A stretch of DNA of 63,391 nt, the filler included, from Reclinomonas americana ATCC 50394 (lineage: Eukaryota): assembly GCA_048213135.1 (NCBI GenBank). It is 8 parts of 5 records of this genome, joined end to end, with 100 filler letters (N's around TTAATTAATTAA, not from the genome) between each part and the next. Parts side by side here need not be neighbours in the genome. Positions count along the whole stretch, not along the records: positions 37,366 to 46,613 come from PS015408.1; 7 more parts are not named here. One strand, 5' to 3'. A program made the translations under genes and the position numbers. Shown one piece after another: positions 7,301-63,349 of this stretch. Below the pieces are notes generated by a model, which had not been told where the DNA came from, made no database searches, and was given only the letters and a program-made list of their open reading frames with translations. How positions within the stretch are numbered: the first letter of the stretch is position 1; the number at the start of each line of letters is the position of its first letter.

Positions 7301-10300
7301 AAGGGAAGGGGGAAGAGAAAGGGGGAAAGGGGGAGAAGGGAAAAAGGGATGCAAGGGAAAGGGGGAGAAGGGAAAGAGAGAGAAAGGAAAGGGATGCAAG
7401 AGAACGGGATGCAAGGGGAAGGGATCTGAGGGAAAGCGATAGAAGAGTAAGCAACAGAAGGGAGTCGTAGGGCGAAAAGACAGAATGCAAGCGAATATGA
7501 GAGCGAGGCAAGCTTGCAATTATTGGCATAGCATGAAGAAAGGCGAAGAGATGAAAACGAAAGAGAGAGAGAGAGAGAGAGAGAAGGCGCAGCCGTTCGA
7601 GAAAATGGACGGCCAGGAAACTGCAGACTGAAGATGAAAAATTGGAACGAGAGCGAGCAGACAGTCTCGGATCGTAAGTTGAAGCAGAGGAAAGTCAGGG
7701 AACGAAGACGGGTAGGGTGGCACAGCGTGCTGAAGGGAGCGAGAATGAGATGGAGAAGTGGGACAGAGATGAAGAATGCAAACTGAGAGTGCGGGGAGAG
7801 CGGGCAGAGATATGAGGCACAATCGTGAGAACGTGATGGGAGACAGCAATGAGACTGAGGGAACAATGAAGCAGGAGGGAAGAGATCGAAGAAAAGCAGC
7901 GCAGAGGATGGCGGGCGAGCGTCACGAAGAGAATCACACGACGAAGGATAACCGCCTTCCCTCCGCCTTTCCCTTTTTACACGCAACTGCCGCCGCGGCC
8001 TCCTGCTCCAGCTTGTTGTTCGACAAATCGAGCTTGGTCAGCAGCGGGTCGGCCTGCAGGGCGCGACCAATGGCCGCACCGCCGGCGTCCTGAATGTTGC
8101 AGTCGTCGAGCAGGAGGCAGCGCAGTGGCCGCGCATCCTTCAGCACCAGGGCCAGTGATTCCACGCCGGCGGGGGCCAAGGAGTATCGCTCCACCACGAC
8201 CTTGCAGAGGGCCTCCAGGAACGGGAGGGCCTGGCTAAAGGCGCGGACGTCTGTGTGGGGCTGATATGAGAAGGAGAAGGAGGAGGGGAAGTAGGGGGTG
8301 GTGATGAGAAGGAACCTTCGCTGCTGGGCTTGGAGGCGGCGAGGGAAAAGGTGATTTCTGCGTCGCCGCCGGCCTCCTGGAGCACGCGGAGGACCTCGCC
8401 GAGTGGTCGGATGTTGGCCTGCGCGCACATGCCGAGGTAGCGCTCGATGAACTCGCCTGGCGGGAGGGGGAGGGTGAGAGGGAGGTTGAGGGCAACGGGG
8501 GAAGGGGAGGGAATGTACCGTGAGCGGCATCGAATGCTTCGCGGCGGATTTGGAGGGCGGTGCCGGCGCCGGCGGGGGAGGCCTGTGGCGGGGCAGGGAT
8601 GTGAGTGAGAGGAGAAAGAGGCAGATGGGTGAAGGGAGGCGATATACGAGGGGAGGACGGTGAGGGCAACACGGCAGTGGGAGCGCAAACGCAGACGAAG
8701 ATTGAGTTGAGATGAGGCGCGAGAGGAACAACGAGAGGCCGACAGGGTGCAGTGAGTGATGAGCAACAAAGGACAGTGACCACGGGTGAGACGAACGAGG
8801 AAGGCAAAAGTGCGACCGACGACACAGAAGAGACGTGAGGACGACAGTGACGTGAAGGTGGTGGGCATACGAGTGGCAGCAACGAATGTGGTGCAAGACA
8901 AGACGAACGATGGAGGCAAAGAATCAAGTGATGGGCAACGGAGGCAAAAGTCAGGAACGAGGAGGATGACAGGATGCCAGTTTGGAGAAGAGAGGCACGA
9001 GCGGAGGAGATCAACAAGGAATGAGAGTTGCAGCCTGTCGAGACCTGAGCAACGCGGATGCTTTTGCCAGTGAGTGCCAGAATGGAGAGGGAGTGGGAGG
9101 GCGAGGCAAAATGGAGAGGGAGTGCGAAAAGGTGATACGAGAGGCACGAACGGAGGAGATCAATAAGGAGAGAGAGTTGCAGCAGGCCGAGCTCTGAGAA
9201 ANNNNNNNNNNNNNNNNNNNNNNNNNNNNNNNNNNNNNNNNNNNNNNNNNNNNNNNNNNNNNNNNNNNNNNNNNNNNNNNNNNNNNNNNNNNNNNNNNNN
9301 NNNNNNNNNNNNNNNNNNNNNNNNNNNNNNNNNNNNNNNNNNNNNNNNNNNNNNNNNNNNNNNNNNNNNNNNNNNNNNNNNNNNNNNNNNNNNNNNNNNN
9401 NNNNNNNNNNNNNNNNNNNNNNNNNNNNNNNNNNNNNNNNNNNNNNNNNNNNNNNNNNNNNNNNNNNNNNNNNNNNNNNNNNNNNNNNNNNNNNNNNNNN
9501 NNNNNNNNNNNNNNNNNNNNNNNNNNNNNNNNNNNNNNNNNNNNNNNNNNNNNNNNNNNNNNNNNNNNNNNNNNNNNNNNNNNNNNNNNNNNNNNNNNNN
9601 NNNNNNNNNNNNNNNNNNNNNNNNNNNNNNNNNNNNNNNNNNNNNNNNNNNNNNNNNNNNNNNNNNNNNNNNNNNNNNNNNNNNNNNNNNNNNNNNNNNN
9701 NNNNNNNNNNNNNNNNNNNNNNNNNNNNNNNNNNNNNNNNNNNNNNNNNNNNNNNNNNNNNNNNNNNNNNNNNNNNNNNNNNNNNNNNNNNNNNNNNNNN
9801 NNNNNNNNNNNNNNNTGAAGAGCGAGGAAATCGGCAAGGAAAGAGTTGAGCTCTGAATGCGCTTGCCAGTGAATGAATGCGAGTGCAGTAAGTGAGTGAG
9901 TGTGAGCGTGTGAGACACAGACTGCGTGCGAGAGAGACTGCGTGTGAGAGAGTGGAGAGTGTGGAGAGTGAGAGTGGAGAGTGAGAGAGTGGAGAGTGAG
10001 AGAGTGGCGAGTGAGTGAGAGAGAGAGAGTGTGTGTGTGTGCATGTGTGTGTGTGTGTGTCTGTGTGTGTCTGTGTGTGTCTGTGTGTGTCTGTGTGTGT
10101 GTGTGTCTGTGTGTGTATGTGTGTGTGTGTGAAGCAGAGAGAGGATGCGACTCACTACATTTGAGAGAATGCGTGAGCGAAACCGCGTGTGTGAGAGAGA
10201 GAGAGTGTGCATGTGTGTTGGTGTCAGAGAGCGAGCGAGGGCAAGAGAGTGAGACTGAGTGAGAGACTGTGACTCCGTACATGAGAGACTGCGAGACTGA

Positions 10301-10902: not shown

Positions 10903-10973
10903 ACACCTGTAGTCTAACGGTATGACGATTGCTTGCCATGCAGTAGGACCGGGTTCAATTCCCGGCAGGTGTA
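10903..10973 (+). tRNA. tRNA-Gly (anticodon GCC)
   Basis: Acceptor stem ACACCTG/CAGGTGT, D arm GTC..GAC with GG in the loop, anticodon stem ATTGC/GCAGT with loop TTGCCAT, T arm CCGGG-TTCAATT-CCCGG, discriminator A. A T-run (Pol III terminator) follows at ~10976-11000. Confidence 0.93.
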
Positions 10974-37933: not shown

Positions 37934-40900
37934 TCATCCTCTTCGTCCACCGTCGTCGGTCACTTCCTCACGGCCGACGCCACCCACAGCACCAAGCGCG
38001 TTGGTGAAATCGGGCAAGACGGTGCCGAGAATACGTTCCACAAGCCCGTGAGTGTTTCGACGCATCAGTTGGACCACCCTGCCGGACACGCGGGCGGTGT
38101 ACGCAGAACCGAATGCCATGCAGCGAAGATACGTCACACGATCCGCTGAGGGGTTCACGAGGTCCGCCTGCTCATCAAGAGGCACTTCCTTCCCATCCGC
38201 CAGAGACCACACTCGAACTTCTCCGCAATCACTGCCACTCACGATGTACTGGCCATCGGGAGTGATCCACACCCCAACTGTGTGTCCCTCCAGTCGTAGC
38301 AGTTCCTCTCCACTTGCCAGTGACCACACTCGTACTGTCTTGTCGTCACTCCCACTTACGATGTACTGACAATTGGGAGTGATGGCGACAGACCGCACAA
38401 TGCCAGTGTGTCCCTCCAATCGGCGCACCTCCTCGCCGCTAGCCAGTGACCACACTCGCACTGTGTAGTCAATACTCCCACTAACGATGTGTTGACCATC
38501 AGGAGTGACGGCGACAGACTCCACAGAGCTGGTGTGCCCCCGCAGCTGCCGCACTTCTTCTCCACTCGCCAATGACCACACTCGCACCGTCTCGTCCCCG
38601 CCTCCGCTCACAATGTGCTGACCATCAGGAGTGACGGCGACACATGTCACCATTCCAGTGTGTCCTTCCAACCGTAGCAACTCTTCTCCACTCGCCAAGG
38701 ACCACACGCGCAATGTCCTGTAATAACTTCCGCTGATAATGTTCTGACCATCGGGAGAGATGGCGACACACCACACACCACCTTTGCGCACCTCAAATCT
38801 TCGTATTTCTTCTCCACTCGCCAAAGACCACACCCGAATAAACCCGTTTCGACTCCCACTCACAGCGTGTTGACCACCAGGAGAAACAGTAAACGCAGAG
38901 GACTGTCCTGCCGCCTTCCACAATTCCTCGCCTGTCGACACAGACCACATCCTCACCGTGCTATCATAACCGGCACTCAAAACATGCTGACAATCGTGGG
39001 TGAGCACGACTGAACGCACCAATTCCGTGTGTCCACCCAACCGTCGTACCTCTTCATCACCTATCACAGGCCACATTCGTACTGTCATATCTTCACTCCC
39101 ACTCACGATATACTGACCATCAGGAGTAACTGTAATTGAACTCAATTGCCTAGTGTGTCCCTCCAATCGCCGCACCTCTCCGCCACTCGCCAGTGACCAA
39201 AGTCGCGCTGTCGAGTCCCTACCACCGCTGACGACGTGCTGCCCATCAGGAGTGACGGCGACAGTGTGCACTGCATCGGCGTGTCCCTCAAGCCGTCGCA
39301 CTTCACCTCCATTCGCCAGTGACCACACTCGCACTGTCTCGTCCCTACTCCCACTAACAAGAAGCTGGCCATCAGGAGTGACTGCAACGCTCTCCACTCC
39401 CCAAGTGTGTCCCTCCAGTCGTCGTACTTCTTCTCCACTTGCCACCGACCACACCCGTACAGTCTTGTCATAACTGCCACTCACAATGTGCTGGCCATCG
39501 GGTGTCACTGCCACTGCATTCACCAAATCCGTGTGGCCTTCCAGTCTGCGCACCTCCTCTCCACTCGCCATCGACCACACCCGTACAGTCTTGTCATGAC
39601 TGCCACTCACAATGTGCTGACCATCGGGTGTCACTGCCACTGCATTCACCAAATCCGTGTGGCCTTCCAGTCGGCGCACCTCCTCGCCAGTTACCACCGA
39701 CCACACCCGTACAGTATTGTCATAACTGCCACTCACAATGTGCTGACCATCGGGCGTCACTGCCACTGCACGCACCCAACCGGTGTGGCCCTCCAGTCGG
39801 CGCACCTGCTCACCACTCGCCACCGACCACACCCGTATCGTTCTGTCATCACTGCCACTCACAATGTGCTGGCCATCGGGGGTGACAGCAACAGTCATCA
39901 CCCGATCAGCGTGTCCAGTTAATGGTTCTCTCGGCCATTTCACATCCCTTACATCCGCCCCCCTGAAATCCGCCTCCCTCGCAAACGCCATGCACACATT
40001 CACCCCTCGCAAATCCGCTCCCCTCCACACCGTCTTGTGCATCACCGCATCCCTCAAATCCGCACCCCTCACTCGCACACCCGACAGATCTCGCCCACTG
40101 AACGACACTTGAGCCAAACACAACACCGTTGCTGCATTGGCGGCTGCCGTCACCACTCGCTCCTCATCCGCCTCCCGTGACATCTCAATCACCTCCCACA
40201 ACCTCGCTTGCAATCGAGGAGACCGTCGCACCACCTCCGCCATCTGCTCCACCAACGATGGTCGATCATTCAGCAATCGCACTGCCAACACATGCTGCTG
40301 TACATCTTCTATCGTCAATCGCCTCTCCTCATCCCATGTCTCCCATGCAAACACATGCCGTGCCACACAGTGCTCCAGCAACGACAGATGCACGAAACCC
40401 CACTGCGTCGTCCCATAACGTCGCACAATCGGACAGCACACTCGCACATGCTGGTTCTTGTGGCCGAGGAACTTGTCAACCGGTCCCTCATCCACTCGTC
40501 CTCGACGACCGAGAGGTGCACCACCAAACTCAGCAATGTCCTCCTCGAACGCCCGTTCCTCTGAAGTCACTCGCACCACATTCCTCTCATGCATCAACCG
40601 TGCCAGTCCCTCACAGAATGCCAGACACACCTCCTCACTCGGCACACGCTCCGCACCAAGACGCGTCTGTCTCTCCTGCTCCCTCACAATCCACTGTCGA
40701 ATGAATCGGTCAAACACATCACACCGAGTCGGTCGTTGCACTCCACTCGCCACCAACTCCGGCAACACACGAGCCACCACTGCCAGCAGGAATGGATTTG
40801 ATACCAGTACATCCAGTCCATGCACACTCTGGAGTGCATCAATGTACTCTTCAGCAGTCGACCATCGCACTTCGCCGTCATCACCATCCACTTGAACCAA

Positions 40901-42589
40901 TCTCACACAGTACTCTTTAATCTGCTCCGTTTTGAACGGTGCAATGTGCCGCTCCATCAGCTGCTGCAAGCACAACTGTCCACGTGCATCTATCGGTGCA
41001 AAATACCGTCGATACTGCGACGCGCCACCCAGTGCCGTCAGTGCGTAATCGCCACGACAGGTGATAATCACCTTCATATCTCGACACACATCCAGTTGGT
41101 TCTTGACAAATAGATTCACACCTCGATACAACTCGTCATACCCGTCAAGCAACAACAGCAGTGGTTCCTCCTTCAATTGCCGCACATCTGACTCCAATCC
41201 CAACTCGGGTGACAGTCTCTCCAATGCCTCCTCCAACAATCGCTCATCGGCATTGCGCAGAGCACCAAGAGGCACACGAACAGGCACTCGTCTGCTGTCT
41301 CTCGTTTGCCACTGTCGCCATGCTCGCTCAGCCAGCACTGACATGGTGGTGGTCTTGCCGGCGCCACTGTTGCCAAACAGTACCAGCACATGCTGCGTGG
41401 TGTTGGTGTCGGAGATGAAAACATCCACTTCCGTCAACAGATCCGTCATCTTCTCACTCGATGAGACATCGCGGTCACGTGAGCACAGCAGCGGCACATA
41501 CATCTGCATGTCCTTGCGCACACTCTCGTCGTGCTGGTAGAAAGACAGCTCACGGACAGCCAGTCGATGCAGTCGCTCTTCATAGGTGCTGATGATGTGC
41601 TGAACGTGACGCGCCTCTCGAATCCGCGTCGCAAATCCGTCGATCGCGTCGGCAGGCAGCTGCAACTTGCCAAGCAGGGCAAGGAACGTGCCACGGTCAC
41701 CGAGATACTCTTGCACGCTGGCCGCTGTCCATGCCGACGATCCGTGCACCAACTCGTTCAGCACCTCGCGCAACTGCTCCAGCGCCTTGCGCTCATCAAC
41801 ATCGTCCATCACCAGCGCCTTGCGACCGTCGACAGGCACAAAACCGCCGAACAGCAAGATGGAAGCCAAGGCTGTCACGTCGAATGCGCCACACGAGGGA
41901 TCAGCGGTGGAGTCAGCATCAAAGGCACACTTCCAGCTGAGCAGGTGCTGCTGCTGCTGTGCAAACAACTTGACTCGCCCAGGGTGGAGTGGTGCATGTT
42001 GATCGTACCACGCCTTGATCGTAGTTGGATGCCAGAACAACGGAGGCGTCCACACATCGGGAGTCCACGCCCGTACATCAAAGTCGGGATGATCGCGACT
42101 GAACTGCGCCAGCGCGCATTGACAGCGCAGACGCACGGCCTCCTCCACCACCTCAAAGGCCATGTTGATGCGCTGGGAGTTGATCATGCTGTGCATCCAG
42201 CGCTGTCAGTACCAAGTGAACAAGGAAGGAAGTCAAGGATGATGAAGGCAAGCAACACAAACCGAGTCACTCGCTCCGAGTTGCTGCGCGAAGACATGCG
42301 AGTGAGCGGCATGTTTTTGAACAGAGAGATGATTCACATACACACACCTTCCACTCCCACTCCCACTCCCGCCACTCGACTGCAGCGCCACGCCAAGTGT
42401 CAGACGGACGACGAGATGAGTGGATAAGTTGATGCCGAGTCCACGCAGCGGTGTTGCGCTGACGAACTCAATGTCGTACGGCACCGGCTTCTCCACCCCC
42501 ACAATCTCCATCTCCCCATCCCCACTCTTCTCACGCAGCAAGCGTGTGGCCTCGCGCAGCACGTCAGCAAGAGTGGACATGGCCGACAT
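37934..42589 (-). CDS. NLR-like STAND protein: HEPN-like N-terminal domain - NACHT - pentapeptide repeats - 14 WD40 repeats (~1531 aa; exons 42263-42589 and 37934-42202)
   Basis: A 1420-aa open frame is extended by one 60-nt GT-AG intron (42203-42262). Walker A VLVLFGNSGAGKTT, Walker B LLLLLDGYDEL, KVIITCR, NPFLL, WGFVHLSLLEH, AAANAATVL, pentapeptide SFSGRDLSGVRVRGADLRDA, then LEGHT..V..VAVTPDGQHIVSGS.D.TVRVWS repeats. Confidence 0.93.
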
Positions 42590-43189
42590 GCCCTCCACCA
42601 CCACCGACAGCGACGAATCATGCGCCGCACTCACATTCACAGAGAACTGTGACACACAAGTGCAGTGAGCGCAGGGAGGAAGGAGAAAGAGAGAAGGTAA
42701 GCACACACCGACATTGTGCTTGTGGCGCGTTGTGTTCTCAGTCGCGTTCACAAAAACTCCTGTAAATCAAGTTGTCACCTTGCTGGTGGATTTCTCATGT
42801 GACAGTGATCCTTGCAAGTCAAACCAAGCCGGGATGAAGAACGCAGGTATGGAGGAGTGTCATATCCCTACAATGATCATCTGTATTCAATGCATGTTCA
42901 AAAGAAACGCGTTCGGCTTTCTGCCTTTCCTATTCCTCCTCCCGTCCCTCTGCAAAGCCCCCTCCTCATCACAAGAGACGCCATCTACATACCCTCACCA
43001 TTGTTTGTATTTCACGATTCATTCGCTATCTCACTCAAGATCTCGCCTCAAACAACCCCTGCTCCTCACAACTGTTCACCAAATCACGCGCTTCTCCTCC
43101 AGTAAGCACCGGATCCTCTCCGCCAGTTTTTCCTCCTCCTGCACGACCCGCATCGCCGCCCTCGCTCACCGCACCTCCTCGCACGCCAT

Positions 43190-45227
43190 TTATAAGTCGT
43201 CCTCCACACCCTCACCCCACCACAATATACTGCTCCTCCACCGACAAATGGCAATCAGCCACGCCGTGCTGCCACCCACCAACCTCCACACCTCCTCCCC
43301 TCCACTCTCTGCGACCACACGCGCACCGATCGATCCCAGCTGCCACTCACCACATGCCACCACCGCCCTCACCGACTCGGTGTGTCCCTCCAACCTCCTG
43401 ACACCACTCTCCCACTTCCCACACACGCACCGTCGCATCATCATGATCACCGCCACTCACCACCACCTGCGCATTATCAACAGCCACCGCCGTCATCGAT
43501 CCTGTTCGACCATCCAAATTCCGCACCTCCTCGTCGCCACTCCATCCTCACTCCCCCCGCCCATCCGCCGACACCCTCAACGGCACTCGCCTTCAGTCTC
43601 TCGTTCACCGCACACGCACCAATGCATCGGTCACCGCACATCGCCACCACGACGTGACCAGCGTGCACCATGCAGGCGGTCAATAAAGACCACCACTCCA
43701 CTTCATCTTCGCTCCACATACGCACATTGTCCCATCATGCGACGCCACCACCGAGAACAAATCGCCGGCCACCACGAGCAGTGTTGGCGGTGATTTTCGA
43801 AACGGACTGAGACATCACTGACTGGTAAGATGTTGGACGGGTGGAGGAAGGAGGTGGTGACAGCGGGAAACATGGACGAACCAAAACACCTCATCCGACC
43901 TTCGCCTTGGCATGCTGGAGGGTGGCGTTGTGCTCCTCCAAAAGAGATAGAAAGTTGATGAGAAGTGAATGCCAGCGCCCATGGACTGCCGGCCAACGAG
44001 AGCTGGTCTACCACGGCACGCACACAGCTCTGGCTCCTTCCCACAACGCACCTCGTGCCCATGTGTCACTCCCCTCTCCTGCCTACAACAACCGTCCCGC
44101 CACCACGCATCTGTGCACCACGCCTCCACTTCCTGAAGACACCGCACCATCTTCACCAAACACCGCACTTCCCCCTCTCCTTCTCCTGCCTACAGCACCT
44201 GCCCCGCCACCACGCACCCATGCACCACCACCTTCGCCCCCCTCCGCCAGAAGACATCACCATCTCCACCAAACACCACACTTCCCCTTCGTCTGTGCAC
44301 CACCACCTGCGCCTCCTCCTCCATAAAACACCACATCACCATCTCCACCAGACACCGCTCTTCTCCCTCTCCTTCCTCCTCCCGCATCATCTCACGCACC
44401 ACCCGCTGCGCCTTCTTCGCCCACTCTAGCACCCCGCACGTCAGCGTATACGCCGTGGACCACACACGCACCTTGCCATCGGTGCTGCCACTCACCACGC
44501 GCTGCCCGTCGGGCGCCACCGCCACCGCCACCACACCACCCGTGTGACCCACCAGTCGACACACCTCCTCACCCGTCGCCATCGACCACACCCGCACCGT
44601 CTTGTCGCCACTGCCGCTGACAATGTGCCGCCCGTCGCGAGTGACGGCCACACACGACACGTAGCCGCGGTGTCCCTTGACCTGGCGCACCACCTTGCCG
44701 TCATCAGTGAGCGACCACACACGAATCGTCGCATCACAACCCGAGCCCGTCACCACATGCAGACCGTCGGTGGTGACAGCCACTGACGTCACTGGCCAGT
44801 GATTCCCGATCAGCAGCAGCTGTTCCTCTTGCCCGCTGTCCAGCGAGAACACATGCACAGAGCGATCTTCACCAGCACGCGCGGTGACGGTCGCCGAGCG
44901 CAACTGCCGCGTGCATCGCAGCTTGACGTGCCACACCTGCTCGCCACTCGCCAGCGACCACACACGCACAGTGCCGTCTGCGCCACTGCCGCTCACCAGG
45001 TGCTGGCCGTCGGGGGTGAAGGCGACGGATGACACGGGTCCACCACTTGACTTGATCTCTCGCACACACTGCGCCTCCTGAGGGAGTGAACACACACACA
45101 TGGTGGCGTCGTGGCTGCCGCTCGCAATGTGGTGGCCGTTGGGGCTGACGGCGACACGAGCAACCGCAAGCATCAACCTCGACGTCGACCAACTTCGCAC
45201 CCCTTCACCTGCATTTCTCTGCCGCAA
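43190..45227 (-). pseudogene. Degenerate WD40-repeat array related to the adjacent NACHT-WD40 gene
   Basis: ORF 44190-45227 has about 6 WD repeats, partly eroded (VAFTPDGQHLVSGSGADGTVRVWSLASGEQV; GHRGYVSCVAVTRDGRHIVSGSGDKTVRVWSMATGEEV). Frameshifted relics continue to ~43300 (RRLEGHTESVRAVVACG). The 5' end runs into a (CA)n tract and a gap. Confidence 0.65.
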
Positions 45228-45251
45228 AAAAAGCCACTCACCGTTCCCCCA

Positions 45252-45345
<94 letters not shown>

Positions 45346-46780
45346 NNNNNNNNNNNNNNNNNNNNNNNNNNNNNNNNNNNNNNNNNNNNNNNNNNNNNNN
45401 NNNNNNNNNNNNNNNNNNNNNNNNNNNNNNNNNNNNNNNNNNNNNNNNNNNNNNNNNNNNNNNNNNNNNNNNNNNNNNNNNNNNNNNNNNNNNNNNNNNN
45501 NNNNNNNNNNNNNNNNNNNNNNNNNNNNNNNNNNNNNNNNNNNNNNNNNNNNNNNNNNNNNNNNNNNNNNNNNNNNNNNNNNNNNNNNNNNNNNNNNNNN
45601 NNNNNNNNNNNNNNNNNNNNNNNNNNNNNNNNNNNNNNNNNNNNNNNNNNNNNNNNNNNNNNNNNNNNNNNNNNNNNNNNNNNNNNNNNNNNNNNNNNNN
45701 NNNNNNNNNNNNNNNNNNNNNNNNNNNNNNNNNNNNNNNNNNNNNNNNNNNNNNNNNNNNNNNNNNNNNNNNNNNNNNNNNNNNNNNNNNNNNNNNNNNN
45801 NNNNNNNNNNNNNNNNNNNNNNNNNNNNNNNNNNNNNNNNNNNNNNNNNNNNNNNNNNNNNNNNNNNNNNNNNNNNNNNNNNNNNNNNNNNNNNNNNNNN
45901 NNNNNNNNNNNNNNNNNNNNNNNNNNNNNNNNNNNNNNNNNNNNNNNNNNNNNNNNNNNNNNNNNNNNNNNNNNNNNNNNNNNNNNNNNNNNNNNNNNNN
46001 NNNNNNNNNNNNNNNNNNNNNNNNNNNNNNNNNNNNNNNNNNNNNNNNNNNNNNNNNNNNNNNNNNNNNNNNNNTTGCACAGCCTCGCATTCAACCTTCC
46101 CTCCCACGGCAAAAAAAGTCCCACATGACAACCACTTGTCTCTCCGCGCTCGTGCGAGCCATGCTGAAGCCGCTCAGCCTCTTCTACGTTGTCTACGAGA
46201 GCGACAGTGTGGTCTCTCATGGACTGGCGTATGTCACAATGATTCCGATTGCCAGTTGCGCGCGCATTTGTGTGATTGACTGACTGACTCTCACAGAGTA
46301 GAGTCTCTCTCGTGTCTCTCGTGTCTCTCTCTCATGTCTCTCTTGTCTCTCTTGTCTCTCTCTGACTCTCTCTCTCTCCCTCACACACGCTCATGCATTC
46401 AATCAATCAATGTGATTTAGGCGACACATGTCGTGCTCTTCTTCTCTCTTGCTCTCTCTCACACACTCTCCCTCTCACAGACTCTCTCTCTCTCTCTCTC
46501 ATTGTTCTCACTACTGCAACTCACACAGTCATGCATTCAGTCAATCAATGTGATTTATGCGACACCTGTCATACTCGTCTTCTCCTCCCTTGCTCTCTCT
46601 CACACGCTCACTCNNNNNNNNNNNNNNNNNNNNNNNNNNNNNNNNNNNNNNNNNNNNTTAATTAATTAANNNNNNNNNNNNNNNNNNNNNNNNNNNNNNN
46701 NNNNNNNNNNNNNCTTCTCTCTCCCTCTTACTTGTTGAGTTAATTGATGATACATTCTTTTTTCCCTCCAAAAAGGGTAC

Positions 46781-49107
46781 TCACGCAAACAGCGTGGTGG
46801 CGTCGCCGGCGCAGTGATTGACGGTGGACTGCGTCTGGTCGGGGAAGAATGTCTTCTTCACCCTCTCGACAATCATGAACGTGGCGGCGTTGACGACGAA
46901 TCCTCTCCACAGGCAGGGCCTTAGGCCGCGCCATAGTGCCTCCCGTGCGCCGGCGCCCTCCTCGGCCACCAGTGCGCGCCAGGCGCGGAGAACGCCGCGG
47001 TATCTTATTGGTTCGTCGCTGGCGAAGTTTTGTGCTTGGACGCGGGCCTGCGAATAAGGGGGAAGGGGGAAGGGAAAGGGAGAGGGAGAGGGGAAGGTGG
47101 TGAGAGGGGAAGGGAGAGGAAAGATGAAAACAAGAAGAGAGAGGGGGACCAAGGGCAGCGAGAAGGGAAAGAGGCAGCGGACATGCAGAGACCATGAAAG
47201 CAGGAGAAGAGGGAAAGAGAAAACGGGAGAAGGGCGTGTACAAAGCAAAGGGGCAACATCATGAAAGAAGACATGGAGGAGGGGTGGACAAAGAGAAAGG
47301 GGAGCACAGAAAGAGAGGAAAAAGGAGAAGAAAGGAAGAAAGGATACATCGATGGGAAGAGCAACGAGAGACGCAGAGAGGATGCAAACGAAGGTGATGA
47401 TGGTGAGCGTAGGATGGGAGAATAGTTTGATGGAAACAGCAAAGAGAGGTAAGAGAATTAGATACGGGTGTAGAGAGTTGATAAGAAGAGTCTGGATTCT
47501 CCGTGTCGCGAAGATTACGGTAACCGCTCCTACCGCGACGCGAACGACCGAGATTCCGGCTTCTCCAGTCGTGGAGTACTCTCTTCTCTTACCCATCTGG
47601 TCACAGCGCTTGCTTGCTCTTCATCTTCTTCTTGATTTCTTTCCTTACATTCCCTTTCTGTCAACCTTTCTGTTTCCTTCTCTGTCTCACTCGCTCTGGG
47701 GAAGACTGAGGAAAGGAATATACAGAGAAGAAATGAGTGATAGAGAGGCGCACTTTGGCAGTGACTCATACAGACACACAGAGCGAGCGAGTGAAAACGA
47801 AAGAGACAAATGGCGAGGCTGCACTGACTGCTCCAATTCCTCTGTTGTTCTGTCATATTCTCTCATCCTCTCATCCAGTAATCTTCTCAGCCTTTCGCAT
47901 TCTGGAAGAAAAGAGGAATGCAAGGAAGTATAACGAGTGAAAAAATGCATATTGCAAGTGAGCAATTCAACGCACATACCCAGAGAAGAGGGATAAAGAG
48001 CGTGAGAGACAAATGAGACAGACGGCGAGACTTGTCTGACAAAAAATTTATGTTGTTTCTCTCCTCCACAACTCTCCCCTCGGTAACAGCAGAAACATGC
48101 GAGAGACAGAATAAATAAAGGGTCCCCGCTGACGCAAGCAGCAATGGCACAAGCTTTAAACGCCACGGGAAGATACAGCGCGAAAGAGGAGGACATCGAG
48201 AGAAAGAACAGAGAAGCTGTCCCCCCTCCTGTTCGTCTGACTTTGAACTACTCGTCACCTCTCTGTCATCCAGATTCTCTCTCCATCTACTCTTCTCCAT
48301 TCTCTTCCCCCCTCACCCTTGCATTCCCCTCCCTCTCATCCATCCCACTTCTCTTCTTTCTTCTCTTCCCCTTCCCCTTCTCCTTGCCTCCCCACTCCCC
48401 CCTCTCTTTCCCCCTTCCCCTTCCCCTTCCCCTTCTCCGCCCTTCCCCCTCCCACACCTTCAGCGTATCCGCCGGAAAACACGCAATCCAGGAGGCCACC
48501 CCGGCACACCCACCCGCCGTGAACGCCACCGCATCCTGTACCAAGCCGTCGTCAGTCGACAGCACCCTTGTCTGGTCCAGGAGGTAGTTGAAGCCGGCGG
48601 AGAAGGCGGTGAAAGTGGTGAAATAGAACGTGAAGCCGATGACGTCACGTGTGATGGTCGCCGGCAGGCCGGTGGCCAGGATTCCACGGAGGCCTACTCT
48701 CCGATACAGTGCTCTCGTGCAGTCCATCAACGGGTGCTTCGAGGAGGTCCAGGGGCTGTTGGCGATTTGGAGTTGGATCTGGGAAGAGGGGAAAGGGTGG
48801 GCGAGAGATGAATGGAGAAGGGTGGAGGGGGGATGGAGAGACCTTTACAAACTCCATGGGTGTGGCGATGAAACTTGAGCAAAAGCCGGTCACGGCGCCT
48901 GCACCCAACAGTGAGCAAAGGGGGTGCGATCACCAAGACTCTCCTTCAACACCAAACCTCCCACGGCGGCCGAGACCAGCGGGTGCGAATCGAGGGATCC
49001 GTGCAGGAATTTGACGGTGAGGTCGAAGGAGCCGAAGGCGATGGCGTTGAGGCCGGCCTGGGCGAGGAGTGGGGGCCAGATGCCGCGGAAGAGGCCTCGG
49101 ATGCCCC
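46781..49107 (-). CDS. Mitochondrial carrier (SLC25; carnitine/basic amino acid carrier-like), 5'-partial
   Basis: Exons give GIRGLFRGIWPPLLAQAGLNAIAFGSF...GG|AVTGFCSSFIATPMEFVK|IQLQ...GLPATITRDVIGFTFYF...AGGCAGVASWIACFPADTLK|ARVQ...YRGVL...LWRGLRPCLWRGFVVNAATF. The Px[DE]xx[KR] signature occurs twice. Confidence 0.92.
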
Positions 49108-49466: not shown

Positions 49467-51135
49467 NNNNNNNNNNNNNNNNNNNNNNNNNNNNNNNNNN
49501 NNNNNNNNNNNNNNNNNNNNNNNNNNNNNNNNNNNNNNNNNNNNNNNNNNNNNNNNNNNNNNNNNNNNNNNNNNNNNNNNNNNNNNNNNNNNNNNNNNNN
49601 NNNNNNNNNNNNNNNNNNNNNNNNNNNNNNNNNNNNNNNNNNNNNNNNNNNNNNNNNNNNNNNNNNNNNNNNNNNNNNNNNNNNNNNNNNNNNNNNNNNN
49701 NNNNNNNNNNNNNNNNNNNNNNNNNNNNNNNNNNNNNNNNNNNNNNNNNNNNNNNNNNNNNNNNNNNNNNNNNNNNNNNNNNNNNNNNNNNNNNNNNNNN
49801 NNNNNNNNNNNNNNNNNNNNNNNNNNNNNNNNNNNNNNNNNNNNNNNNNNNNNNNNNNNNNNNNNNNNNNNNNNNNNNNNNNNNNNNNNNNNNNNNNNNN
49901 NNNNNNNNNNNNNNNNNNNNNNNNNNNNNNNNNNNNNNNNNNNNNNNNNNNNNNNNNNNNNNNNNNNNNNNNNNNNNNNNNNNNNNNNNNNNNNNNNNNN
50001 NNNNNNNNNNNNNNNNNNNNNNNNNNNNNNNNNNNNNNNNNNNNNNNNNNNNNNNNNNNNNNNNNNNNNNNNNNNNNNNNNNNNNNNNNNNNNNNNNNNN
50101 NNNNNNNNNNNNNNNNNNNNNNNNNNNNNNNNNNNNNNNNNNNNNNNNNNNNNNNNNNNNNNNNNNNNNNNNNNNNNNNNNNNNNNNNNNNNNNNNNNNN
50201 NNNNNNNNNNNNNNNNNNNNNNNNNNNNNNNNNNNNNNNNNNNNNNNNNNNNNNNNNNNNNNNNNNNNNNNNNNNNNNNNNNNNNNNNNNNNNNNNNNNN
50301 NNNNNNNNNNNNNNNNNNNNNNNNGAGAGAGAGAGAGAGAGGGAGAAGAAGGAGTGCGACAGAAGGAGCAGCAATTTAGTGCAAGAGAAGTGGGACAGCG
50401 AGGGATAAAGGAGCTGGACGTCGTAATCAAGGCGACGATGAAGGCACGACAACACAGAAGAATGAGAGCAGTAAGCAAGAGTGAGTGAGTGAGGAAGGAG
50501 AGGGACAAGTGAAAGAGAGTGAAGAGTGAAGACGGAGAGGGGGGCAAAGAGGGAGAGACAAACGAGAGAGAAAGAGATGGGAGGAAGGATAAAATGTGAC
50601 TATGTGTCGCCTGCATCCATTCAACGACGACAGAGGCAGGCAAAGTGAAAGAATGAGAGCAAATGGGAAACGAGAGAAAGACAACGAGAGGGAGAGAGGA
50701 ATAAAGAGGCAAACGAGAGAGAGGGACACGAAAGGCAGACTGAATGTGGAGGCAATGGAGGACAGCATTCTGCCAGGCCGGTTGCAATCAGTGCGACGAC
50801 AAAGAGAGCGATGGAATGAGGACAGAGAGGGGGAAACGGAGAAGAGAGGAAGAGGACAAAAGTGGGAAGGATAAAATGTGACAAACTGTAGCCTGCATGC
50901 ATTCAACGACGACGGAGGCACGCAAAGTGAAAGAATGAGAGAGAATAGAGAGAGAGAGAGAGAGAGAGAGAGGAGGAGGAGGAGAGAGAGAGGAGGAGAG
51001 AGAGAGAGAGAGGAGGAGAGAGAGAGAGAGAGAGAGNNNNNNNNNNNNNNNNNNNNNNNNNNNNNNNNNNNNNNNNNNNNTTAATTAATTAANNNNNNNN
51101 NNNNNNNNNNNNNNNNNNNNNNNNNNNNNNNNNNN

Positions 51136-63242: not shown

Positions 63243-63349
63243 CTCTGTGGGAGGGATTGAGAAGCCAGTGACGACGGCAACAGCGCGGGAGCGCATGAGA
63301 GAGGAGGCGGCGTCGTAGAGCTCGCCCGGGATGTGGAGGGCAGCGATTC
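63243..63349 (-). CDS. DUF4392-family N-terminal exon (belongs before the 60442 exon in protein order)
   Basis: CAG|GIAALHIPGELYDAASSLMRSRAVAVVTGFSIPPTE|GTTTGT matches the family segment RGI..L....AA..L....V...TGF preceding ETDGPPGA. Confidence 0.75.

What the first reader, a model, noticed from the sequence alone, without database searches (positions are those of the whole stretch)
37934..42589. HEPN-like effector - NACHT - pentapeptide - WD40 NLR-type receptor: candidate innate-immune/allorecognition system in a microbial eukaryote
Seen: the N-terminal helical region has AFDVTALASILL...ALEQLREVLNELVHG...SVQEY. This matches the DZIP3/Swt1-type HEPN pattern (D.T.L..+L ... +R..RN..AH), except that the R of Rx4H is L (CTG, one change from CGG). 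An intact NACHT, a pentapeptide segment and 14 WD40 repeats follow. The gene has one intron in 4.6 kb, whereas its neighbours have one every ~100-200 nt. Established: effector-NACHT-WD40 proteins mediate fungal heterokaryon incompatibility (HET-E/D), STAND-effector fusions act in bacterial antiphage defence, and NACHT-pentapeptide-WD40 architectures occur in cyanobacteria and Mortierellaceae. Inference: a ligand-triggered oligomerising receptor with an RNase-derived (possibly inactivated) effector, recently acquired or retroposed.
Basis: partly seen in the sequence, partly recalled or inferred. Interest (0 to 1): 0.75.

Follow-up and report, generated by a model that had tools for sequence, protein, structure and literature searches.

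The report
NLR-type NACHT-WD40 receptor gene, HEPN-like head
This is an intact gene for an NLR-type immune-receptor-like protein (helical head, NACHT switch, pentapeptide spacer, 14 WD40 blades) in an unidentified intron-rich eukaryote; it is a new example of a design already known from bacteria, Mortierella-type fungi and shellfish, and its head may be a disabled RNase domain.

Summary
The gene is real. On the minus strand, 37934-42589 holds a 4,272-nt stop-free frame. A 242-nt first exon and a 159-nt GT-AG intron are plausible. The product is about 1,498 aa: helical N-domain, NACHT with intact Walker A/B, a ~60-aa pentapeptide segment and 14 WD40 units. Pfam confirms NACHT, pentapeptide and WD40.

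The WD40 units vary at two pairs of positions that flank conserved residues, the geometry reported for Podospora HET-E/D. The NOD module is 23-28% identical to Linnemannia (Mortierellaceae) and bacterial NACHT-pentapeptide proteins and groups with them. That architecture is published as a transfer from bacteria to Mortierellomycota.

The HEPN reading of the N-domain is plausible but not shown.
- For: the quoted strings are present, Leu (CTG) sits where the Arg of Rx4H should be, and the protein-language-model neighbours are DZIP3/DUF4559/Swt1 HEPN clusters (0.93).
- No support: Pfam, phmmer against 1.84 billion proteins, hhalign against 28 bacterial Swt1-type HEPNs (P=0.1) and two low-confidence AlphaFold models.

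HEPN-NACHT-repeat receptors are already described in bivalves, cnidarians and bacteria.

Context is thin. The window is a chain of contigs joined by artificial linkers, the gene's own piece is 9.2 kb, the organism is unidentified and no RNA run was listed. Verdict: new member of a known kind, moderate interest.

The parts
37934..42188 (-). Main (second) exon. The stop-free frame itself runs 37934..42205 and gives 1423 codons (P0001); the stop codon is at 37934-37936.
42189..42347 (-). Proposed 159-nt intron: donor AAG|GTGTGT, branch-like TACTGAC, acceptor CAG. It keeps the frame.
   Evidence: The donor resembles AAG|GTGTGG of the carrier gene. There is no RNA evidence.
42348..42589 (-). Proposed first exon (80 codons plus 2 nt) from the ATG at 42589. 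It matches no known family.
   Evidence: Its codon score is 0.11 against 0.29-0.34 for the main frame, while a 150-nt window at 42506-42655 scores 0.39. No Pfam or NCBIfam hit.
41606..42028 (-). HEPN-like helical segment, ORF residues about 60-200. The predicted helices are 75-95, 110-119, 138-154 and 161-180.
   Evidence: Language-model neighbours score 0.93 and are HEPN_DZIP3/DUF4559/HEPN_Swt1 clusters. Helices come from a low-confidence model. No HMM or HH support.
41852..41887 (-). Helix-2 string AFDVTALASILL (residues 107-118), with Asp109 at the place of the conserved acidic residue.
   Evidence: It lines up by eye with WD.AALLK / LDLAALLR of bacterial Swt1-type HEPNs.
41744..41794 (-). 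Helix-3 string ERKALEQLREVLNELVH (residues 138-154). It has LNxxxH where the family has RNxxxH; Leu149 is CTG at 41759-41761.
   Evidence: It is the best local hhalign match to the Swt1 profiles: 17 columns, 41% identity, P=0.2, and 28 columns, P=0.1.
41396..41698 (-). Helical linker before the NACHT (residues 170-270), alignable with the pre-NACHT region of the Linnemannia proteins.
40136..41395 (-). NOD module (residues about 271-690). It holds the NACHT P-loop NTPase with Walker A GNSGAGKT (41351-41374) and Walker B LLLLDGYDE (41132-41158), followed by helical/winged-helix parts.
39935..40117 (-). Pentapeptide-repeat segment (residues about 697-757) between the NOD module and the WD40 array.
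   Evidence: PF00805, 30.6 bits. It aligns with the same segment of Linnemannia P0002.
38201..39946 (-). 14 WD40 units (twelve of 42 aa, two of 39 aa; residues 754-1335), enough for two seven-bladed propellers.
   Evidence: TRF finds period 126 x 12.9 copies.
37937..38200 (-). 88-residue C-terminal tail with no family match.
43204..45251 (-). Upstream WD40 array of the same repeat type. At least five Pfam WD40 stretches lie in one frame at 44451-45251, with further fragments at 43204-43532 in other frames. It is either a second gene or a remnant, and it runs into a 729-N gap.

Best explanation
This is an intact eukaryotic gene for an NLR-type STAND receptor built on the bacterial-style 'NACHT - pentapeptide - 2x7 WD40' chassis, the lineage also found in Mortierellaceae.

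Shown:
- the domain order;
- intact NTP-binding motifs;
- a WD40 array whose units differ mainly at two pairs of positions flanking conserved residues.

Inferred mechanism:
- the WD40 propellers hold the protein closed until a ligand binds their variable face;
- nucleotide exchange in the NACHT then drives oligomerisation;
- oligomerisation brings the N-terminal heads together.

The head (residues about 60-200) is most likely a diverged HEPN domain of the DZIP3/CXorf38/Swt1 group. It keeps the Asn and His of RNxxxH but has Leu at the Arg place. It is therefore probably a weak or dead RNase that acts by induced dimerisation or by recruiting a partner, rather than as a potent nuclease. The biological role is most likely non-self or infection sensing. 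That role is inferred from relatives and was not tested.
For: Architecture and motifs.
- WD40 has 14 stretches. NACHT and pentapeptide both score above their Pfam cut-offs. Walker A and B are intact.

Relatives.
- 11 proteins reach E<=0.001 among the 8000 candidates scored. The best three are Linnemannia proteins at E=6.6e-34 to 2.9e-32 and 26-27% identity. The bacterial or metagenome hits carry Mrr_cat + NACHT + pentapeptide + WD40.
- The alignment with Linnemannia runs from residue 170 through the pentapeptide segment.
- In a 13-row NOD tree, the window protein, a gammaproteobacterial NACHT-pentapeptide-propeller protein (L001) and the three Linnemannia proteins form the smallest supported set, 96/98.

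WD40 variation, 11 in-register units.
- Column entropy exceeds 1.5 bits only at positions 14, 15, 17, 18, 33 and 35.
- At those six positions there are 286 non-synonymous and 17 synonymous codon differences. At the other 36 positions there are 515 and 679.
- Pairs 15/17 and 33/35 flank conserved Val16 and Asp34 and lie 18 residues apart. This matches codons 7/9 and 25/27 around 8 and 26 in HET-E/D (PMC1805685, passages read).

HEPN head.
- The language-model search of residues 60-200 gives 0.93 with 185-186 of 256 shared features.
- Among the 30 best named clusters, 13 fall in the HEPN_DZIP3 set, 5 in DUF4559 and 2 in both. HEPN_Swt1 appears at 0.89.
- The whole 270 aa gave HEPN_Swt1 at 0.79 and HEPN_DZIP3 at 0.77.
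- The best local hhalign match to Swt1-type profiles is exactly the RNxxxH helix.
- The predicted helix 138-154 ends at His154. In HEPN domains the motif sits at the end of helix 3 (PMC3710099).
- The two recalled sub-patterns occur in 0.35% and 0.37% of 200,000 shuffles, and never together in the right order (the pattern was chosen after the fact).
Against: Against or missing for the HEPN head.
- No HEPN family appears in Pfam at E<=10, in NCBIfam or in PADLOC. The PDB sequence search found nothing.
- phmmer of the N-terminal 270 aa against 1.84 billion representatives gave 0 hits at E<=0.001. The word-indexed search of residues 90-215 scored 606 candidates, none at E<=10.
- A profile of 15 bacterial Swt1-type HEPNs scores 0.5 bits with filters off. 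hhalign gives P=0.2 with 15 sequences and P=0.1 with 28 sequences.
- Both single-sequence AlphaFold models are unusable, with pLDDT 39.1 and 44.7. Foldseek on the second gives nothing below E=2.6.
- The language-model tool warns that 4-10% of shuffled proteins reach 0.9, that it was not calibrated for parts of proteins, and that only 3 of the ten best hits share a family with the top hit.
- The defining Arg of Rx4-6H is absent.

Against or missing for function.
- No RNA evidence, paralogues or alleles were available, so function and polymorphism are untested.
- The window protein sits on a long branch (1.72) with deviant composition in the tree.
Confidence: 0.6

Rival explanations
1. The receptor chassis is the same, but the N-terminal head is not a HEPN domain. 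It is a lineage-specific helical adaptor or death-fold-like module of unknown type, and the RNxxxH-like string is a chance resemblance.
For: Every alignment-based and fold-based test failed to reach significance. The catalytic Arg is missing. N-terminal heads are freely swapped in this lineage: ARM_5 in Linnemannia and Mrr_cat in L002, P0005, P0007 and P0012.
Against: Both language-model searches point to the same small group of HEPN families out of all of Pfam. The best hhalign match falls exactly on the catalytic helix. Helix order and motif position fit a HEPN domain. The two motif halves never co-occurred in 200,000 shuffles.
Confidence: 0.3
2. The gene is a decaying or silent xenologue: a bacterial-type NLR gene that entered the genome, lost effector activity (Arg to Leu) and is no longer used.
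For: The architecture is bacterial in type and the frame is almost intron-free, while other frames of the same assembly are split by short introns. The effector motif is degenerate. An apparently broken WD40 array lies just upstream. No RNA run was listed, which is no evidence either way.
Against: A 1423-codon frame is open without a single stop. The Walker A and B motifs are intact. Non-variable WD40 codons show more synonymous than non-synonymous differences (679 against 515), while variable ones show the reverse (17 against 286). That pattern indicates selection on the protein. GC3 of 0.60 lies within the 0.57-0.75 range of the valid coding frames in the window, so the gene is not freshly arrived.
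Confidence: 0.1
3. The gene has a housekeeping or scaffolding role instead of non-self sensing, in the way TEP1 or NWD1-type proteins are large NACHT-WD40 proteins working outside immunity.
For: NACHT-WD40 proteins with non-immune roles exist (TEP1 is named as a separate NACHT clade in the Kibby preprint). Nothing here tests function.
Against: No orthologue above 28% identity turned up in the protein searches. Variation between repeats is concentrated on the predicted binding face. Units 2-4 were duplicated recently, at 88-94% nucleotide identity. A tandem WD40 relative lies upstream. These are traits of fast-evolving receptor genes.
Confidence: 0.12
4. The 9.2-kb piece is contamination from a bacterium or another organism in the assembly, not part of the intron-rich genome.
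For: The window is a chain of separate contigs joined by linkers. The gene is almost intron-free and of bacterial type.
Against: The same piece carries (CA)46 and (TC)n microsatellites like the other pieces. Its GC content matches the window. A frame-keeping GT-AG intron with a branch-like site is present. The upstream WD40 array is split over several frames, as spliced or decayed eukaryotic genes are.
Confidence: 0.03

Closest known systems
NOD-like receptors of Mortierellomycota with NACHT-PPR-WD40 architecture (Ciach et al. 2024, PMC11291939; for example the Linnemannia hyalina/elongata proteins P0002-P0004)
   Same: The order NACHT, pentapeptide, WD40 is the same. These are the best database hits, at E down to 6.6e-34. 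The alignment covers the pre-NACHT linker, the NOD module and the pentapeptide segment. They share a supported tree set with the window protein. The paper describes them as acquired from Mycoavidus endosymbionts (passages read).
   Different: Identity is only 25-28%. Their 550-residue N-terminus is an ARM-like repeat (PF23948), not the helical HEPN-like head. Their WD40 units are much more diverged from each other (sequence). The host here is not a Mortierella-type genome as far as composition and intron density show.
Bacterial NACHT (bNACHT) NLR-related proteins with repeat sensors (Kibby et al., bioRxiv 10.1101/2022.07.19.500537)
   Same: The plan is effector head, NACHT, then pentapeptide and/or beta-propeller sensor. 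L001 is NACHT-pentapeptide-propeller and L002 is Mrr_cat-NACHT-pentapeptide. The preprint lists HEPN RNases among bNACHT effectors, and it states that eukaryotic NACHTs derive several times from bacterial versions with such sensors (passages).
   Different: This gene sits in a eukaryotic assembly next to microsatellites and probably has an intron. Earlier notes of this scan name 'clade 11', but I could not check that: the phrase does not occur in the preprint's main text and bioRxiv supplements are closed. No anti-phage context applies.
DZIP3/hRUL138-like HEPN - NACHT - (LRR/TPR/WD40) proteins of bivalves and cnidarians (Takeuchi et al. 2022, PMC9646362; Anantharaman et al. 2013, PMC3710099 Table 1)
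   Same: The HEPN-type head is N-terminal to a NACHT with C-terminal repeats that can be WD40. The Asn follows the Arg place. The language-model neighbours of the head are molluscan DZIP3/DUF4559 clusters. The papers report more than 50 such proteins in the pearl oyster, and lineage-specific expansions in Nematostella, oyster and Capsaspora (passages).
   Different: 194 of 202 oyster domains keep Rx4-6H, whereas this one has Leu at the Arg place. No Pfam PF18738 hit was obtained here. The NOD module here is of the pentapeptide-bearing bacterial/Mortierella type.
Podospora anserina HET-E/HET-D/HET-R (HNWD) allorecognition NLRs (Paoletti et al. 2007, PMC1805685)
   Same: Both have a NACHT plus a WD40 array of 42-residue units. 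The variable positions come as two pairs around conserved residues, 18 residues apart, which in HET-E lie on the top face of the propeller.
   Different: There is no HET domain (no PF06985 hit). A pentapeptide segment is present. The repeats are less homogenised, with mean nucleotide identity 68% and only units 2-4 at 88-94%. No allelic data exist.

Membership tests
NACHT NTPase (Pfam PF05729, STAND class) | Profile match above the curated cut-off | tested here: met
   35.4 bits against a cut-off of 26.7, E=1.2e-8
NACHT NTPase (Pfam PF05729, STAND class) | Walker A GxxxxGK[ST], and Walker B with hydrophobic strand-D-[GAS]-x-DE | tested here: met
   GNSGAGKT at residue 278 and LLLLDGYDE at residue 350. 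The Walker B consensus is recalled.
NACHT-pentapeptide-WD40 lineage (bacteria, Mortierellomycota) | Pentapeptide segment between the NOD module and the WD40 array | tested here: met
   PF00805 scores 30.6 bits at residues about 697-725, directly before WD40 unit 1. It aligns with the Linnemannia segment.
NACHT-pentapeptide-WD40 lineage (bacteria, Mortierellomycota) | NOD module groups with members of the lineage | tested here: met
   A 96/98 set holds L001 and three Linnemannia proteins in a 13-row tree. Branches are long and composition is flagged.
NACHT-pentapeptide-WD40 lineage (bacteria, Mortierellomycota) | Assignment to a numbered bNACHT clade of Kibby et al. | not testable with these tools
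   The clade tables are in closed bioRxiv supplements, and 'clade 11' does not occur in the main text.
HEPN superfamily, DZIP3/CXorf38/Swt1 group | Significant profile match (PF18738, PF18731 or PF15112) | tested here: not met
   No such hit at E<=10. My own Swt1 profiles give 0.5 bits, P=0.2 and P=0.1. No DZIP3 members could be fetched (0 of 401 genomes).
HEPN superfamily, DZIP3/CXorf38/Swt1 group | Rx4-6H motif at the end of helix 3 | tested here: not met
   The string is L149-N-E-L-V-H154: Leu replaces Arg while Asn and His are kept. Motif-less, presumably inactive HEPN domains are accepted members of the superfamily (PMC3710099).
HEPN superfamily, DZIP3/CXorf38/Swt1 group | Four-helix up-down bundle | tested here: inconclusive
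   The models have pLDDT 39.1 and 44.7. Helix order fits, but Foldseek gives nothing.
HEPN superfamily, DZIP3/CXorf38/Swt1 group | Similarity to family members by an alignment-free method | tested here: met
   Score 0.93, with 20 of the 30 best named clusters in the DZIP3/DUF4559 sets. By the tool's own rules this is a lead only.
HET-E/D/R (HNWD) family | N-terminal HET domain | tested here: not met
   No PF06985 hit in the N-terminal 271 residues
HET-E/D/R (HNWD) family | Highly similar WD40 units with variable pairs on the top face | tested here: met
   Pairs 15/17 and 33/35 match codons 7/9 and 25/27. Homogenisation is only partial.

The most novel reading that the evidence does not exclude
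A eukaryote outside the animals carries a chimeric immune receptor. A NACHT-pentapeptide-WD40 chassis of bacterial descent (a transfer separate from the Mortierellomycota one) was fused after transfer to a DZIP3/CXorf38-type HEPN head, a type otherwise reported mainly from animals and Capsaspora. That head has since been converted from an RNase into a non-catalytic signalling or recruitment module. This would make it a protist parallel to the catalytically dead effector heads seen in some bacterial NLRs.
Probability: 0.25. Interest if true: 0.55.

Novelty: new member of a known kind. Interest (0 to 1): 0.4.

Why it matters
NLR-type receptors are thought to have entered eukaryotes from bacteria several times. 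Each new eukaryotic lineage that carries a bacterial-style chassis helps to date and count those transfers.

If the head is truly a DZIP3-type HEPN, the HEPN-NACHT pairing known from shellfish and cnidarians would extend to a different NOD lineage and probably to a non-animal host. The Arg-to-Leu change would then offer a natural test of whether such heads signal by RNA cleavage or by induced proximity alone.

The WD40 array also gives a compact example of HET-E-like surface diversification outside the fungi where it was defined. As it stands, the gene is one more member of a catalogued design, with no functional data.

Tried and rejected
Searches on the head that found nothing.
- Pfam on sub-segments, NCBIfam and PADLOC.
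- PDB sequence search.
- phmmer against 1.84 billion representatives.
- Word-indexed search of residues 90-215 at E<=10.

Structure.
- Two single-sequence AlphaFold jobs gave pLDDT 39.1 and 44.7, too low to use.
- Foldseek against PDB on the second model gave a best E of 2.6, which is meaningless.

Profiles of my own.
- I took 15 of the 29 PF18731 matches in 401 genomes of one phylum and 13 of the 14 matches in 401 genomes of another.
- Neither hmmsearch with filters off nor hhalign reached significance.
- PF18738 was not found in the 401 genomes searched, so no DZIP3 profile could be built.
- The supplement of PMC3710099 held as text (4,325 characters) has no alignment.

Relatives elsewhere.
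- The metagenome scan with the head returned one locus, L040. Its 29-residue match lies antisense to ABC-transporter genes and is spurious.
- Paralogues in the window: none for the head or the NOD module by tblastn. Only WD40 repeats were found upstream.
- No whole genome is held.

Expression: no run was listed and no RNA holder was listed.

Organism.
- My last protein search used a 77-residue carrier-exon query whose first ~14 residues are intronic, and it found nothing.
- Rfam found only one tRNA.
- The scan has no notes on this genome.

Retroposition is rejected as unsupported: there is no A-run in the 570 nt after the stop codon. Recent transfer is rejected as unsupported by composition. 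I did not send a complex-prediction job.

Full report
WHAT IS THERE. The minus strand carries a stop-free frame from 42205 to 37934, 1423 codons long (numbering below is of this frame, P0001). Pfam finds 14 WD40 stretches (PF00400, E=3e-148). With the repeats cut away, it finds a NACHT domain (PF05729, 35.4 bits, cut-off 26.7, E=1.2e-8) and a pentapeptide segment (PF00805, 30.6 bits, cut-off 20.2). Walker A (GNSGAGKT, residue 278) and Walker B (LLLLDGYDE, residue 350) are intact. The residue at the Arg place of Rx4H is Leu149, codon CTG at 41759-41761, with Asn150 and His154 kept. The domain observations are therefore confirmed.

GENE MODEL AND CONTEXT. An exon 42589-42348, a 159-nt intron 42347-42189 and an exon from 42188 join in frame with no internal stop, giving 1,498 residues. 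The intron has donor AAG|GTGTGT, a TACTGAC about 17 nt before the acceptor, and acceptor CAG. The donor resembles AAG|GTGTGG of a carrier-gene exon elsewhere in the window, where a 64-nt intron is plain to see. Support for the first exon is modest. Its codon score is 0.11 against 0.29-0.34 for the main frame, although a 150-nt window at 42506-42655 scores 0.39. It matches no family. A start at Met15 (AACATGG) without any intron cannot be excluded. No sequencing run could be listed.

The window is not one continuous stretch. Seven 44N-TTAATTAATTAA-44N six-frame-stop linkers chain separate contigs together. The piece that holds the gene is 37366-46613, 9.2 kb, with a 729-N gap inside. The intron-dense 'neighbours' (mitochondrial carrier, REJ/GPS gene) are on other pieces. 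The contrast in intron density therefore holds for the assembly, not for a locus. The gene's own piece carries (CA)46 and (TC)n microsatellites like the rest, which argues against bacterial contamination.

RELATIVES OF THE NOD-PENTAPEPTIDE-WD40 PART. A search with residues 1-760 scored 8000 candidates and gave 11 proteins at E<=0.001. The best three are 'WD40 repeat-like' proteins of Linnemannia hyalina and L. elongata (E=6.6e-34 to 2.9e-32, 26-27% identity). The others are bacterial or metagenome proteins whose precomputed Pfam lists hold Mrr_cat, NACHT, pentapeptide and WD40. The alignment with Linnemannia P0002 runs from residue 170 through the NOD module and the pentapeptide segment to residue 757, and the first ~170 residues are not shared. 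The Linnemannia N-terminus is an ARM-like repeat (PF23948, E=1.4e-60).

A scan of one genome per prokaryote species gave 10 loci. L001 (a gammaproteobacterial MAG) is NACHT-pentapeptide-weak propeller, and L002 (Verrucomicrobia) is Mrr_cat-NACHT-pentapeptide. With the NOD module alone, BLASTP bit scores are 109, 98 and 93 for Linnemannia and 85 and 81 for L002 and L001. I then built a maximum-likelihood tree of 13 rows. P0008-P0011, L004, L005, L007, L009 and L010 were left out because their matches cover under about 300 residues or were not found. The window protein, L001 and the three Linnemannia proteins form the smallest supported set (96/98). However, the window's branch is long (1.72) and its composition is flagged.

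Ciach et al. (PMC11291939; passages read) describe 'NACHT-PPR-WD40' NOD-like receptors of Mortierellomycota as acquired from Mycoavidus endosymbionts. Kibby et al. (preprint; passages read) state that eukaryotic NACHTs derive several times from bacterial versions with repeat sensors. Earlier notes of this scan report many bacterial effector-NACHT-pentapeptide-(WD40)14 genes. The chassis is thus a catalogued design.

THE WD40 ARRAY. Twelve units have 42 residues and two have 39. Over the 12 in-register units, mean pairwise identity is 63% (protein) and 68% (DNA), and units 2-4 are 88-94% identical in DNA. TRF sees period 126 x 12.9 copies, with a 3.8-copy core at 89%. Over 11 units (the first left out), column entropy exceeds 1.5 bits only at positions 14, 15, 17, 18, 33 and 35. 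Those codons show 286 non-synonymous against 17 synonymous differences, while the other 36 positions show 515 against 679. Pairs 15/17 and 33/35 flank conserved Val16 and Asp34 and lie 18 residues apart. Paoletti et al. (PMC1805685; passages read) report the same geometry for HET-E/D. There, codons 7/9 and 25/27 around conserved 8 and 26 lie on the top face of the propeller. This compares repeats within one gene, not alleles, so it shows where the units have diverged and does not show allorecognition.

THE HEAD: HEPN OR NOT. Evidence for:
(i) The language-model atlas placed the 270-residue head nearest to HEPN_Swt1 (0.79) and HEPN_DZIP3 (0.77) clusters.
(ii) Residues 60-200 scored 0.93, with 185-186 of 256 shared features. 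Among the 30 best named clusters, 13 fall in the HEPN_DZIP3 set, 5 in DUF4559, 2 in both, and HEPN_Swt1 appears at 0.89. That DUF4559 is the CXorf38 family is my recollection and comes from no call.
(iii) Against profiles I built from bacterial Swt1-type HEPN domains, the best local match is exactly the catalytic helix, ERKALEQLREVLNELVH against ERSLLSELRDHRNSWAH.
(iv) In the low-confidence model, helices at 75-95, 110-119, 138-154 and 161-180 give a four-helix order with His154 at the end of the third helix. Anantharaman et al. place the motif there (PMC3710099; passages).
This pattern was fixed after seeing the sequence.

Evidence against:
- No HEPN family turns up in Pfam at E<=10, NCBIfam or PADLOC.
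- Nothing turns up in PDB sequences.
- phmmer finds 0 hits at E<=0.001 among 1.84 billion representatives, and the word-indexed search scores none of its 606 candidates at E<=10.
- hmmsearch with filters off gives 0.5 bits, and hhalign gives P=0.2 and P=0.1.
- The AlphaFold models have pLDDT 39.1 and 44.7, and Foldseek's best E is 2.6.
- The atlas tool itself says that 4-10% of shuffled proteins reach 0.9 and that parts of proteins were not calibrated.

I could not build a DZIP3 profile: PF18738 was not found in the 401 genomes searched, and no eukaryotic members were reachable. I put HEPN homology at about 0.6.

ACTIVE OR NOT. The His is essential in RNase L, RloC and PrrC, and the Arg was needed in the KEN domain and PrrC (PMC3710099). 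In the pearl oyster, 194 of 202 DZIP3-like HEPN domains keep Rx4-6H, usually with Asn after the Arg (PMC9646362). With Leu at that place the head is probably a weak or dead RNase, as proposed for eukaryotic Swt1. A single-base assembly error (CTG for CGG) cannot be excluded in a draft of this quality.

ORIGIN. The chassis is bacterial in type and nearly intron-free, so descent from a transferred gene is plausible. 'Recent' is not supported. No relative exceeds 28% identity. GC3 is 0.60 for the gene overall and 0.72, 0.58 and 0.56 for the head, NOD and repeat parts. That lies inside the 0.57-0.75 range of the valid coding frames in the window (the two rows of that call whose frames proved wrong, the carrier exon and the LRR exon, are left out). 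A WD40 array of the same repeat type lies upstream, which implies duplication in place. Retroposition has no support, because there is no A-run within 570 nt after the stop.

HOW IT MOST LIKELY WORKS. Shown: the order of parts, the intact nucleotide-binding motifs and a repeat sensor with a variable face. Inferred from STAND/NLR biology (established knowledge): ligand binding at the WD40 face releases autoinhibition, the NACHT exchanges nucleotide and oligomerises, and the N-terminal heads are clustered. For HEPN heads, clustering would normally assemble a composite RNase site. Here it more likely serves recruitment or a residual activity.

NOVELTY. HEPN-NACHT fusions are in print for cnidarians, cephalochordates, bivalves and bacteria, with WD40 or TPR tails in the oyster. 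NACHT-pentapeptide-WD40 is in print for bacteria and Mortierellomycota. My literature searches (listings and the passages named above) did not show the two combined, or a HEPN-NACHT receptor in a non-animal eukaryote other than the Capsaspora expansion of DZIP3 domains. These searches cover open-access text only. I file the gene as a new member of a known kind, with interest 0.4.

LIMITS. The organism is unidentified. One protein search spent on that question had a query with ~14 intronic residues and found nothing. No genome, reads or paralogues were available. Supplements of the bioRxiv preprint, which hold the bNACHT clade tables, could not be seen.

Noticed in passing
window 25336-25435, 37266-37365, 46614-46713, 51037-51136, 53281-53380, 58107-58206, 60331-60430: Seven identical spacers of 44 N, TTAATTAATTAA, 44 N, which give stops in all six frames. 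The window is therefore a chain of separate contigs or scaffolds, and gene neighbourhood across these points is artificial. Twenty other N runs of 179-919 bases are ordinary gaps.
   Followed up: partly
window 43204-45251, minus strand: A second WD40 array of the same repeat type lies directly upstream, with 41-63% identity to the main gene's array at 44451-45164. Five Pfam WD40 stretches sit in one frame at 44451-45251, and further fragments lie in other frames at 43204-43532. It ends in a (CA)46 run and a 729-N gap, so its N-terminal part, if any, is unseen. It may be a tandem NLR paralogue or a remnant.
   Followed up: partly
window 17797-20098, plus strand: Long frames give a weak REJ domain match (PF02010, E=7.8e-5, below the cut-off) and a GPS motif (PF01825, 26.4 bits). 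This suggests a polycystin-1/REJ-like receptor gene on another contig of the chain.
   Followed up: partly
window 46781-49100, minus strand: Mitochondrial carrier gene (PF00153, E=1.5e-11) split into short exons. One intron of 64 nt (48841-48778) runs from GTCTCT to a pyrimidine-rich CAG acceptor.
   Followed up: partly
window 55269-57713, minus strand: An 815-codon stop-free frame, the second longest in the window, is rich in Pro, Ser, Arg and Thr and has no Pfam match. Long exons are thus not unique to the NLR gene.
   Followed up: partly
window 6893-9159, minus strand: Frames with leucine-rich-repeat-like strings of the ribonuclease-inhibitor type (for example LRTLLLGNNRMGDKGVVRL). This was read by eye only.
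   Followed up: no
window 10903-10973, plus strand: tRNA-Gly (GCC), the only Rfam or ARAGORN hit in the window.
   Followed up: yes
window 771-2163 and 61344-63315: Long stop-free frames made of low-complexity Pro/Ser/Leu-rich repeats on both strands. They are probably simple-sequence DNA rather than genes.
   Followed up: no
L011-L028 (bacterial loci): Most strong PF18731 (HEPN_Swt1) matches in the two bacterial phyla sampled sit at the start of open frames of about 1050-1370 residues. This fits the Ava_2192-type HEPN plus AAA+ fusion of Anantharaman et al. Shorter stand-alone forms of about 190-205 residues also occur.
   Followed up: no
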